DNA of 60,362 nt from Girardia tigrina (GCA_001938485.1 MQRK01189741.1:31314-91675); one strand, 5' to 3'; counted from the stretch's first letter, positions 44,140 to 46,836 are shown. A program made the numbers and translations. The notes: generated by a model from the letters alone, not told the origin.

Positions 44140-46836
44140 TGTGATGAATATTTTAAATTGTTTGAATGTGTAAATGTATGAATGCTGTGTGTTGATTTAA
44201 GTATGTTGAATTTATAATGGTGATTCTCCAACCCAGATGGAAATTGGTATTTTTTTTATTTAAATTTAAAGTGATTGACTATTCGAACATAATTAAAATA
44301 ATCAATTGATAAGTTCATATTTTTAATTTCACAATTAAAATTAAGTTTAATAATTTTTAGTAATATTTAAATTAAATGCATTTTTAATAATTTGATGACA
44401 TTTTTATTATTTTGGGATTTATATAGAAATTGTTAAAATTATTATTTTTTAATTAATATTTTTTAAAGGTAAAATATTGTAAAAAATAACTTAGAAAAAT
44501 GGTTCGAATAATCATGATTAAAAACAGAAATAAGAAAACCAATTAGAAGGATGACAAACGATGAAAGACTTTCTGAGAGTCATAATGACTCTAAATGTGA
44601 TTGTAATAAAAATTCAAATGGGACTTGTTTAAATGTTCTTAATATGGCGACAAACGACCACGTGACACCAGTTATCAAGGAAACGGAGACATTCGATGGG
44701 TCAGAAGTAAAATTAGAAGAATTCTTAATAAGCTTTGAGAGATACTCAAAGATTTTGGGATTTAAGGAAAAAAAGAAAAGCAATATTAGTTACAGCATTC
44801 ATGGCCCCAGAAGCGATAAACAAATATGAGAAGACACAAGGAGGAAGCTGAGAAACAAGAATGAGAAGTGTATTCTCGAAAGAGAAAAATATTTTAGAGA
44901 TAATGAAGGAGCTTGTAGAGATTAGAATCGGGGATAAAAATCCATCAGAAGTATTTAAAAAGACTGATGAATTAGTGGAAGAACTAGTTGAGAAAAAACT
45001 AGGAAAAAAAGAACTTTCTGATCTACCGTACGCAAACGCCGTCGAAGATAAAGAAGTAAGAAGAGAAATGACTCTGAGAAATGCCACAAAAGCAGAAGAT
45101 ATAAAAAATGTTCGGATCGAGAAATTTTCCAATCGACACCAGGCCAATTCATTACGGGGGCACTGAGTCTGATGCAAAATTTCTCGGGATCTGAAATAAA
45201 ATAAAATGATTATTAAATAAATATAATATTAATTAATTAAAACTAACCTTAATTGATTTTGGACTTTGATCTGAAATAAAAAATATTAATATTATTATTA
45301 AAATTAATTGAATAAAAAGCTTACCTAATTGATTTCACCTTTAATCCTGAAATTAACAAAAACAATTATTATCTCTGTAATTAGAAAACTTACTTGATCT
45401 ATCTGACCTTTGATCGTTGTTCATCTAAATGAAAATGTTGCATTAGGTTGATGTAAAAGAAATGTCGTTTTTTAACCGTCAATTTTAAATGAATACAACT
45501 TTCTTTGGAATTAACTTTATTAGTCAAAATAAAAACCATTACATTGATCACGCTGTTGCCAACCGCTAACGACTCGGAACTAGTAAATTACGGAGTAATG
45601 CAACTAAAGATTAAGATTGAAAGAATTCAGAAAACAGTGGATTTTCTTGTAGTAAAAGATTTGGAACCAAAAATGATTGCAGGAATAGAAAAAAATTTAA
45701 GTTTTGTCTAAAATTTTAACATATTGTAGGAAATTTGCAAAATAGATAAAACTAGATTATTGTAAAAAAATAGAAAAATAAAAAGTAAGAACCCTTATTT
45801 CATTTTATATTGCTCCAAGTTAATGTTATATAACCTTATGAAAACTGGAGAATATATTTGACGTAATAAAATAATATTTGACGATTTCCTTTTTCCTTTG
45901 CTACCGATTATTTATTTGAAAGTATAAATCGAATGAAGTATCTTGAAGTGGATATAGTTTATTAATGTCAAAGATAAAGGTAGTTAATTGAATATGGTTC
46001 GAGTAGCCGTCCCGATGATTGAGAATCAGAATTCGTGTAAATAGTTATGACAGGACAAAGGATTAATATGAATTGATTAAGCGAAAATGTAAAACTCGTC
46101 AGGCATAATTTAATAAATATAATATAAAGGTAAAATATTATAAAGGTAAATACGAAATAAGAATACAATATGAATAGTACGATGAGCTTTGGGAGATGAT
46201 ACGGGGCGACCGCAGTATGCGAGGGGCACGTGGATTGACCGACGTTTATCTCTTTGGGGCTCTCTTCGTTCTATATAACCTAAATAATAATTCTTGAGTA
46301 CCATTTATGACCACAGAAGGAAACAATATCTACCCCTCAGGAACTGAGCTACCAGTCGGGCTATGCTCGATACTGGTAGAGAACCCGAAGGCGCTCCGAA
46401 GCACACACAACTTGTTGATGTGTTGGGAGAAAACACGTCTGTTCTCCATGAGTGTAATGTTAAGATAATGGAGCGTAAATTGCGTGATAGAGTTGCTGTT
46501 GAACTCTAAAAAAACGGATGGGGGCTCTGAGCTTACAAAAATGTTGAAAAAAGGAGCAAAACGACAAATGCATTTTTAATAATTTGATGACATTTTTATT
46601 ATTTTGGGATTTATTGAGAAGTTGTAAAAATTATTATTTTTTAATTAATATTTTGTAGAAGTAAAACATTTTAAAAAATAACTTAGAAAAATTTTTCGAA
46701 TAATCATGATTAAAAACAGAAATAAGAAAACCAATTAGAAGGATGACAAACGATGAAAGACCTTCTGAGAGTCATAATGATTCTACATGTTATTGTAATA
46801 AAAATTCAAATGGGACTTGTTTAAATGTTCTTAATA
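44140..46836 (+). mobile_element. Non-autonomous Ty3/Gypsy element (family B): 5' LTR 44140-44644, PBS, gag, PR fragment, partial 3' LTR 46566-46836
   Basis: The 3' halves of the LTRs are near-identical and both end GTTCTTAATA. PBS TGGCGAC; gag MATNDHVTP..ETFDGS..LEEFL; flanks TAAAG/TACAG. Confidence 0.85.
45109..45560 (-). other. Micro-exon cassette: exons 45424-45394, 45346-45325, 45270-45248 and 45190 onward
   Basis: Three AT-rich introns (47, 54, 57 nt) with GTAAGT/GTAAGC/GTTAGT donors and TTTCAG acceptors. Exon 1 begins with ATG. Confidence 0.7.

What the first reader, a model, noticed from the sequence alone, without database searches (positions are those of the whole stretch)
45109..45560. 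Antisense micro-exon gene cassette inside an LTR element
Seen on the minus strand: tttag|ATGAACAACGATCAAAGGTCAGATAGATCAA (31 nt)|gtaagt-47 nt-tttcag|GATTAAAGGTGAAATCAATTAG (22)|gtaagc-54-tttcag|ATCAAAGTCCAAAATCAATTAAG (23)|gttagt-57-tttcag|ATCCCGAGAA... Exons 2 and 3 are paralogous, which suggests exon-intron duplication. The spliced product reads MNNDQRSDRSRLKVKSIRSKSK (RS/KS-rich). Exon 3 as written hits a stop unless two extra A residues are decay or sequencing errors; a 21-nt version continues RSREILHQTQCPRNELAW. A GGTTGGCAACAG motif lies upstream. The cassette replaces the gag knuckle and protease start of the 44140-46836 element. Established: antisense introns survive retrotransposition, and micro-exon genes are known from schistosomes. 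Inference: this is either transduced cargo or a captured 5' end of an unannotated micro-exon gene. ORF finders cannot see it.
Basis: partly seen in the sequence, partly recalled or inferred. Interest (0 to 1): 0.72.

Follow-up and report, generated by a model that had tools for sequence, protein, structure and literature searches.

The report
Retrotransposon LTR with backward-facing micro-introns
This is not a captured host gene but the broken-off end of a common flatworm jumping gene's terminal repeat, which carries its own row of tiny backward-facing introns and likely makes a spliced non-coding RNA against the element's own direction, much as some retroviruses do.

Summary
The splice-like pattern is real, but it is not cargo or a host micro-exon gene. 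Window 45109-45440 is the first 332 nt of the 1.3-1.5 kb LTR of a second gypsy family in a planarian genome. That family has at least about 180 copies, TG..CA ends, 4-bp target duplications and an 18/18 tRNA-Pro primer site. The window copy is nested in another gypsy's gag and truncated. Whole LTRs carry four 45-57 nt introns, antisense to gag. Two subfamilies and the paralogous introns keep their splice signals while intron interiors diverge. Contigs from two runs guessed to be RNA skip intron 1 at GT..AG; no copy lacking intron 1 or 3 was found in the genome. The peptide is not conserved (24 aa at most typically; no ATG in subfamily II), so a non-coding RNA is likely, by analogy to BLV AS1/AS2. 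Unexpectedly, the 3' LTR is preceded by an 11-nt mimic of the tRNA-Pro 3' end instead of a polypurine tract. Relatives encode a long gag polyprotein and a fusion glycoprotein (Burro-like, not shown to be Burro). The scan had not noted this on other DNA.

The parts
44518..45108 (+). decayed gag of the host gypsy element (insertion target)
   Evidence: ORF pieces; 85-91% match to sister copies L101 and L024; no Pfam hit for the two pieces
45109..45440 (+). first 332 nt (U3 start, gag-sense = +) of the 1.3-1.5 kb LTR of a second gypsy family; truncated
   Evidence: 91-95% identical to the 39 other scored matches; TG..CA ends and target duplications in whole copies; orientation from PBS and gag
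45109..45190 (-). last antisense exon within the LTR; terminal hairpin
   Evidence: fold z -3.8 on this strand vs -0.7 on the other for copy L003; lower energy on this strand in 46 of 59 copies; same architecture with a different stem in a divergent family
45191..45247 (-). intron 3 (57 nt, GTTAGT..TTTCAG)
   Evidence: donor GTTAGT in 50 and acceptor TTTCAG in 51 of 61 aligned rows; splicing not tested on RNA
45248..45270 (-). micro-exon 3 (23 nt, with family-typical stop)
45271..45324 (-). intron 2 (54 nt here, 47-51 nt in most copies)
   Evidence: splicing not tested on RNA
45325..45346 (-). micro-exon 2 (22 nt; 23 nt in subfamily II)
45347..45393 (-). intron 1 (47 nt, GTAAGT..TTTCAG)
   Evidence: the orthologous intron of copy L003 is skipped at GT..AG in contigs of runs X8 and X17; 0 intron-less matches in the genome
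45394..45424 (-). micro-exon 1 (31 nt; internal exon, starts ATG in subfamily I and ATC in subfamily II)
45425..45440 (-). acceptor end of intron 0; the rest of the LTR (exon 0, hairpin array, U5) is lost in this copy
45441..45564 (.). unassigned filler holding GGTTGGCAACAG; not part of the LTR
   Evidence: no match to the family; only a 38-nt weak match (E 0.008) in one of the fetched loci
45569..45689 (+). 3' part of the host element's protease region, where host homology resumes
   Evidence: 87% match to L024, where about 940 nt separate the two host pieces

Best explanation
The cassette is the U3 end of a truncated LTR from a high-copy planarian gypsy family, and its antisense introns likely serve a spliced, non-coding antisense RNA made from the LTR itself. 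Shown: LTR identity, copy number, PBS, orientation opposite to gag, four short introns kept in two subfamilies, no conserved reading frame. Weakly shown: splicing of intron 1. Inferred mechanism: a divergent promoter inside the LTR transcribes leftwards through exon 0, three duplicated micro-exons and the terminal hairpin. The RNA would run out into the element's 3' internal region (at a 3' LTR) or into host DNA (at 5' and solo LTRs). The introns would persist because the packaged genomic RNA is the other strand and is never spliced there. The most likely role is regulatory (inferred): splicing would mark the RNA as host-like and set its stability, and the RNA would damp or gate sense expression by pairing or interference, as proposed for retroviral antisense RNAs. 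History of this copy (inferred): the LTR inserted into another gypsy's gag, and a later deletion removed about 1 kb of the LTR plus the host knuckle and protease start.
For: Repeat: 40 scored matches of 2006 candidates, most ending at the same two points; 179 and 183 exact terminal motifs. LTR: 7-bp TG..CA inverted ends; 4-bp target duplication exact in 14 of 21 two-ended copies, one mismatch in 4, and the other 3 abut internal sequence. PBS pairs 18/18 with genome-encoded tRNA-Pro(TGG). C248545 holds 5' LTR, PBS flank and about 7.5 kb internal region with decayed gag on the strand opposite the cassette. Selection on splicing: paralogous intron interiors are 58-76% alike while their ends match at 9-12 of 12; subfamily I vs II interiors of introns 0 and 1 are 66-70% alike with canonical ends in both; the intron-0 acceptor is ATTTAG in 31 and TTTCAG in 14 of 61 rows, both canonical. 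Lengths fit the planarian 45-85 bp short-intron peak (PMC13594981, passages). RNA: joint 1547->1595, 47 nt, GT..AG, in 2 of 4 runs from two studies; a third run leaves at the same donor into 7 other letters. DNA controls: 0 matches lacking intron 1 or 3; no precise intron loss in 60 copies. Terminal hairpin folds better on the antisense strand.
Against: The RNA support is thin. It comes from contigs, not reads, at depth 5.2 and 2, with 20-22 nt on the short side and flagged 'between: not known'. The runs are only guessed to be RNA, carry other organism labels than the best DNA holders, and no DNA run was laid beside them. X3 showed no joint; unspliced contigs occur in X3, X8 and X9; no joint at intron 0 was seen; introns 2 and 3 are untested. 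Across all copies GT/AG columns are not more conserved than intron interiors (mismatch 0.090 vs 0.082); neutral decay and a 1-nt register shift between subfamilies would give this, but it is no support. The subfamily comparison used only 6 x 2 copies picked by a pattern that requires the splice motifs. The divergent family has one intron-like spacer with a weak donor. Joint folding of 19 family copies did not recover the terminal hairpin. No start site and no function were tested.
Confidence: 0.68

Rival explanations
1. The units are DNA-level enhancer repeats of U3. The 'exons' are transcription-factor sites spaced by AT-rich linkers, and the splice signals are a by-product of duplicating one intron-like unit; any splicing is incidental.
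For: Exons 1-3 of subfamily I each hold ATCAAAG, and exons 0 and 3 hold CAAAGTCC; these resemble TCF/LEF and HNF4 sites (recalled, not tested). Tandem repeats in U3 are common (own knowledge). Unspliced contigs are present. No excess conservation of GT/AG across copies.
Against: Linker interiors drift while both splice ends and 45-57 nt lengths stay canonical in four paralogues and two subfamilies; joints fall exactly on GT..AG. The two readings are compatible.
Confidence: 0.2
2. The spliced antisense RNA is an mRNA: the micro-exons are its 5' leader or a short upstream ORF, and it splices on to an antisense ORF in the internal region, like HBZ or plant antisense extra ORFs.
For: Subfamily I has an ATG giving a 24-codon frame in 7 of 13 fully parsed copies. 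A weak antisense frame of 110-124 codons recurs in the 5' leader of several copies, far from the 3' LTR.
Against: ATG absent and exon 2 phase different in subfamily II; stops in all frames in 12 of 13 spliced copies (the other has masked bases). No ORF of 110 codons or more on the antisense strand of the 3' internal region in C228480; copies are decayed, so this is not final.
Confidence: 0.07
3. One reading: captured 5' end of a host micro-exon gene carried as cargo.
For: Canonical host-type introns. An ancient capture of one host intron as the seed of the unit cannot be excluded.
Against: Present in the LTR of all copies that cover it, not in a few; integrated between LTR hairpins; a homologous unit exists in a divergent LTR family; every scored match is the LTR; no conserved peptide.
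Confidence: 0.04

Closest known systems
BLV antisense transcripts AS1/AS2 and HTLV-1 spliced hbz RNA (PMC4855707, PMC10186651; passages read)
   Same: LTR-borne, spliced on the strand opposite gag, doubtful coding potential. In BLV the antisense RNA overlaps miRNA hairpins; here exon 0 overlaps a hairpin that folds best on the sense strand.
   Different: Here the host is an invertebrate and the element a gypsy. All four introns lie inside U3 and flank 22-31 nt duplicated exons, so solo LTRs carry the whole array. Start site, location in the cell and small RNAs are untested.
Burro / GYPSM1 giant gypsy elements of planarians (PMC6431247, passages)
   Same: Triclad host; gag with CCHC knuckles opening a long polyprotein; a mononegavirus-type fusion glycoprotein (PF24664) further downstream in close relatives.
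   Different: LTR 1.3-1.5 kb and internal region about 7.5 kb in the cassette family; no BIR, MATH, BCL2, dUTPase or ankyrin Pfam hit in the pieces scanned; no protease or RT linked to this lineage in the contigs seen. The passages read mention no antisense introns.
Antisense extra ORFs and transcripts of LTR retrotransposons: maize Grande gene23, rice RIRE2, Retand, Drosophila hydei micropia (PMC7264820, passages)
   Same: Family-wide antisense transcription unit; micropia RNAs are non-coding. The review calls for a search for antisense and spliced transcripts.
   Different: Those units are described in the internal region between pol and the 3' LTR, mostly with an ORF; here the unit is inside the LTR, multi-intron and without a conserved ORF.
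Schistosome micro-exon genes (MEGs) (recalled, no call)
   Same: Flatworm host; a run of very short exons.
   Different: Not a single-copy host gene; exon lengths are not multiples of three; no conserved ORF or signal peptide.

Membership tests
LTR of a Ty3/gypsy-type element | TG..CA termini with short inverted repeat | tested here: met
   7-bp TGTTGGG..CCCAACA
LTR of a Ty3/gypsy-type element | 4-5 bp target-site duplication around solo copies | tested here: met
   4 bp exact in 14 of 21 two-ended copies, 1 mismatch in 4; the other 3 abut internal sequence
LTR of a Ty3/gypsy-type element | tRNA primer-binding site after the 5' LTR | tested here: met
   18/18 duplex with the tRNA-Pro(TGG) 3' end; 5 of 5 ARAGORN calls are tRNA-Pro; spacer 7-9 nt
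LTR of a Ty3/gypsy-type element | polypurine tract before the 3' LTR | tested here: not met
   7 loci share a flank with a C-tract and an 11-nt tRNA-end mimic, no purine tract; similar in 1 copy of the divergent family
LTR of a Ty3/gypsy-type element | gag downstream of the PBS | tested here: met
   decayed gag in C248545, L153, L157, L159; zf-CCHC and Retrotrans_gag hits
LTR of a Ty3/gypsy-type element | pol (PR-RT-RH-IN) in gypsy order | tested here: inconclusive
   no RT or PR hit in 10 internal regions; one integrase hit in L157 lies on the opposite strand outside the matched internal part; both controls hit. Contigs are short, so an autonomous partner may be unseen; gypsy placement rests on gag, env and target duplication.
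Burro (GYPSM1-type) | gag with 2-3 CCHC knuckles heading a very long polyprotein | tested here: inconclusive
   2 knuckle hits; open frames above 1000 codons in relatives, cut by contig ends or stops
Burro (GYPSM1-type) | env-like fusion domain in frame between gag and protease | tested here: inconclusive
   PF24664 follows the gag region in C234330 and C224278 (87% to it), but no protease follows in the fetched DNA; an env-PR-RT order was seen only in a different element with about 28-34% env identity
Burro (GYPSM1-type) | accessory domains BIR, MATH, BCL2, dUTPase, ankyrin | tested here: not met
   none in Pfam scans of 11 pieces; the polyprotein was not covered whole
Burro (GYPSM1-type) | internal region up to 25 kb, total above 30 kb | tested here: not met
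   about 7.5 kb in the cassette family; size of the env-bearing relative unknown
Retroviral-type spliced antisense lncRNA (BLV AS1/AS2) | spliced on the strand opposite gag | tested here: inconclusive
   intron-1 joint in 2 of 4 runs, low depth, contigs only
Retroviral-type spliced antisense lncRNA (BLV AS1/AS2) | initiates within the LTR | not testable with these tools
   contigs give no start sites
Retroviral-type spliced antisense lncRNA (BLV AS1/AS2) | no conserved coding frame | tested here: met
Micro-exon gene (schistosome MEG type; features recalled) | host gene with phase-symmetric micro-exons and a conserved secreted ORF | tested here: not met
   exons 31, 22/23, 23 nt; stop in 42 of 44; all scored matches are LTR copies

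The most novel reading that the evidence does not exclude
This planarian gypsy lineage has a two-faced LTR. It has replaced the polypurine tract with a second, inverted tRNA-Pro site, so that tRNA primes the plus strand as well as the minus strand, and the spliced antisense RNA with its terminal hairpin and adjoining tRNA site is a working part of replication control. The same LTR carries an array of pre-miRNA-like hairpins on the sense strand, giving a BLV-like pairing of small RNAs and antisense RNA in an invertebrate retroelement.
Probability: 0.2. Interest if true: 0.82.

Novelty: new variant of a known kind. Interest (0 to 1): 0.55.

Why it matters
Spliced antisense RNAs from LTRs are best known from deltaretroviruses. 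A multi-intron, micro-exon version fixed inside the U3 of an invertebrate gypsy family would show that such units can be kept and expanded by exon-intron duplication without a protein. At least about 180 solo LTRs would each be an outward-facing spliced promoter in the host genome. The missing polypurine tract, with a tRNA-end mimic in its place, gives a direct test of whether plus-strand priming can do without a PPT in a natural element. For annotation, such arrays will be mistaken for micro-exon genes in flatworm genomes.

Tried and rejected
1) I first read the flank shared by L013/L019 as a polypurine tract. One search showed it is the end of another repeat family and the two loci share one insertion site; dropped. 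2) Pattern searches for TGG right after either end (9 and 6 matches) found no PBS because the spacer is 6-9 nt. 3) Non-autonomous DNA transposon (MITE or Ginger type): rejected once PBS and gag were found. 4) Peptide reading and the 21-nt exon repair: rejected. 5) Rfam on the whole L003 LTR: 0 matches at E<=1. 6) Word-indexed protein search with the gag piece: no hit. The full HMMER search gave 518 hits at E<=0.001, and among the 150 listed no best stretch goes beyond residue 352 of 1105, so the middle domain is unexplained. 9) Literature: searches listed no paper on antisense introns in a planarian LTR or on a tRNA site replacing the PPT (48 and 68 returned 0 papers). The S. mediterranea genome paper was not held, and its supplements or Repbase may describe these LTRs. 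PMC8532177 passages had nothing on LTR introns. 10) Alignment folding of 19 family copies failed to give the terminal hairpin, while a 4+4 set with the divergent family did; treated as mixed.

Full report
Observation. The minus-strand pattern is in the sequence as described: exons of 31, 22 and 23 nt separated by introns of 47, 54 and 57 nt with GTAAGT, GTAAGC and GTTAGT donors and TTTCAG acceptors. A chain of three such short introns occurs once in the window and in 0 of 100 locally shuffled windows. The genome is 1.43 Gb and AT-rich. A GPCR from another contig is 74% identical over 97% of its length to Schmidtea mediterranea GCR083, far ahead of all other hits, so the host is a planarian.

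The cassette is one end of a high-copy LTR. A search with 45100-45600 gave 2006 candidates; of 40 scored matches, 39 are other loci at 91-95% identity, nearly all covering only 45440 to about 45109. In those loci the match is the end of a 1.3-1.5 kb element bounded by TGTTGGG..CCCAACA. Exact terminal motifs occur 179 and 183 times, which are lower bounds. Of 21 two-ended copies, 14 have an exact 4-bp target duplication, 4 have one mismatch, and 3 abut shared internal sequence. The window holds only the first 332 nt. A sister host copy (L024) has about 940 nt of gag knuckle and protease where the window has the LTR piece plus 124 nt of unassigned filler. Insertion followed by a deletion explains this (inferred). 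The GGTTGGCAACAG motif is in that filler and in 0 of 231 other loci.

Orientation. One end is followed, after 7-9 nt, by a primer-binding site that pairs 18/18 with a tRNA-Pro(TGG) encoded in the genome (16 gene-end matches; 5 of 5 called tRNA-Pro; duplex -41.8 kcal/mol). C248545 carries the 5' LTR, that flank and about 7.5 kb of internal sequence with decayed gag-polyprotein homology on the strand opposite the cassette. The cassette is therefore the start of U3, antisense to gag, reading out of the LTR. No RT or protease hit was found in 10 internal regions while both controls hit, so this family looks non-autonomous in this assembly. A related family has a gag-headed frame above 1000 codons followed by a PF24664 fusion glycoprotein. 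This recalls Burro (PMC6431247, passages), but the Burro accessory domains and size were not met, so I do not file it as Burro.

Full anatomy and selection. Whole LTRs add an 84-nt exon 0 and a 45-47 nt intron 0. There are two subfamilies. The intron-0 acceptor is ATTTAG in 31 and TTTCAG in 14 of 61 aligned rows; the intron-2 donor is GTAAGC in 24 and GTAAGT in 24. All variants are canonical. Between subfamilies the interiors of introns 0 and 1 are 66% and 70% alike; this used 6 x 2 copies selected by a pattern that requires the splice motifs, so it is biased at the ends. Within one copy the four paralogous interiors are 58-76% alike with 9-12 of 12 end positions matching. Against this, over all copies GT/AG columns mismatch as often as interiors (0.090 vs 0.082). 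Intron lengths fit the planarian 45-85 bp peak (PMC13594981, passages). The divergent family keeps a single intron-like spacer with a weaker donor before a terminal hairpin with the same loop and a different stem (3 copies read, 4 ends). That suggests one ancestral unit amplified to four (inferred).

Not coding. Exon 3 is 23 nt in 44 of 44 parsed copies and holds the in-frame stop in 42. Of 61 copies, 13 parsed with all four introns under a strict pattern. In 7 the ATG frame is 24 codons, in one 45, in one 9, one starts TTG, and the three subfamily II copies start ATC and have a 23-nt exon 2.

RNA. Contigs of four runs were laid on copy L003 from upstream of exon 0 to the end of exon 2. X8 (depth 5.2, 22 nt side) and X17 (depth 2, 20 nt side), from two studies, skip exactly intron 1 (47 nt, GT..AG). 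The cut falls at both splice sites, where an unspliced diverged copy would have kept matching. X9 leaves at the same donor into 7 other letters. X3 shows no joint. Unspliced contigs are present in X3, X8 and X9, as expected from the sense RNA or DNA. The joints are flagged 'between: not known', RNA status is a guess, and the organism labels differ from the best DNA holders. Genome patterns for copies lacking intron 1 or 3 gave 0 matches. Introns 2 and 3 have no RNA test.

Structure. The terminal exon folds better on the antisense strand (z -3.8 vs -0.7; 46 of 59 copies; z -4.2 to -6.4 vs -2.8 to -3.5 in the divergent family). Joint folding was mixed: 19 family copies did not give the hairpin, while a 4+4 set gave 24 pairs with 7 changed on both sides. 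The exon-0 and tandem hairpins fold better on the gag-sense strand (75 of 77 units). No Rfam family matches.

No polypurine tract. Seven loci share the flank before the 3' LTR. It has no purine tract but an 11-nt mimic of the tRNA-Pro 3' end, 6 nt from the LTR, mirroring the PBS. One copy of the divergent family has a similar, weaker site. tRNA could pair there on minus-strand DNA and prime the plus strand, or the site could pair with the PBS within the genomic RNA; both are untested inferences.

Mechanism and comparison. Most likely a divergent LTR promoter makes a spliced non-coding antisense RNA that regulates the element, the introns surviving because only the sense strand is packaged (0.68; the LTR identity itself is near certain, the function is inferred). 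The closest working analogue is BLV AS1/AS2 and spliced hbz RNA (PMC4855707, PMC10186651, passages). Antisense units of plant elements and micropia are known (PMC7264820, passages). The main rival is an enhancer array with incidental splice signals (0.2); the TCF-like and HNF4-like motif names are recalled. Nine paper searches listed nothing on this arrangement; the planarian genome paper was not held. The scan's notes hold no earlier report of it.

Verdict. Real feature, wrongly read as cargo; a new variant of LTR-borne spliced antisense RNA, with an odd PPT-less 3' end worth a direct test. Interest 0.55.

Noticed in passing
L009, L032, L057, L107, L114, L115, L117 (flank after the cassette end); L203:8500-8536: Where a polypurine tract should precede the 3' LTR there is an 11-nt match to the tRNA-Pro 3' end facing the other way (one G-U pair), 6 nt from the LTR, mirroring the true PBS. 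A similar, weaker site is in one copy of the divergent family (duplex -26.2 and -19.8 vs -41.8 kcal/mol for the PBS).
   Followed up: partly
L003:800-1180 and 1385-1468; L217, L218, L228: Array of about 100-nt repeats in the LTR folding as 60-70 nt hairpins, better on the gag-sense strand in 75 of 77 units, with 5 of 20 pairs changed on both sides among 13 representatives; no Rfam match. Lost in the window copy.
   Followed up: partly
window 44769 and 45109; L024; L069/L101: Three independent insertions of this LTR family fall within about 370 bp of the same host gypsy gag; hotspot or just a high-copy target, untested.
   Followed up: no
window 46187-46569; L026-L045: An abundant repeat family with a sharp TGTCGCG-type end that holds an 11-nt tRNA-Pro PBS-like motif next to a purine tract, with unrelated flanks in 20 loci and often two direct copies 1-2.4 kb apart. 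Its class is unresolved.
   Followed up: partly
L197:71-3385; L213:6657-8204: About 750 residues behind the gag knuckles of the related env-bearing family have no Pfam hit and no listed homologue among 1.84 billion representatives.
   Followed up: partly
L155:7851-9983 and L156: A different element with fusion glycoprotein, protease, RT and integrase in Burro-like order lies antiparallel next to a copy of the cassette family.
   Followed up: no
L107 (C35992): Apparent recombinant: gag 96% identical to the divergent family joined to the 3' flank and LTR of subfamily II.
   Followed up: no
window 45553-45564: GGTTGGCAACAG resembles an RFX X-box half site or a DNA-transposon end (recalled; an earlier scan note describes X-box arrays in a transposon of this genome); source of the 124-nt filler unknown.
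   Followed up: partly
window 12617-13120: Exon of a sodium:neurotransmitter symporter (PF00209); the rest of the window is mostly decayed transposon frames.
   Followed up: no
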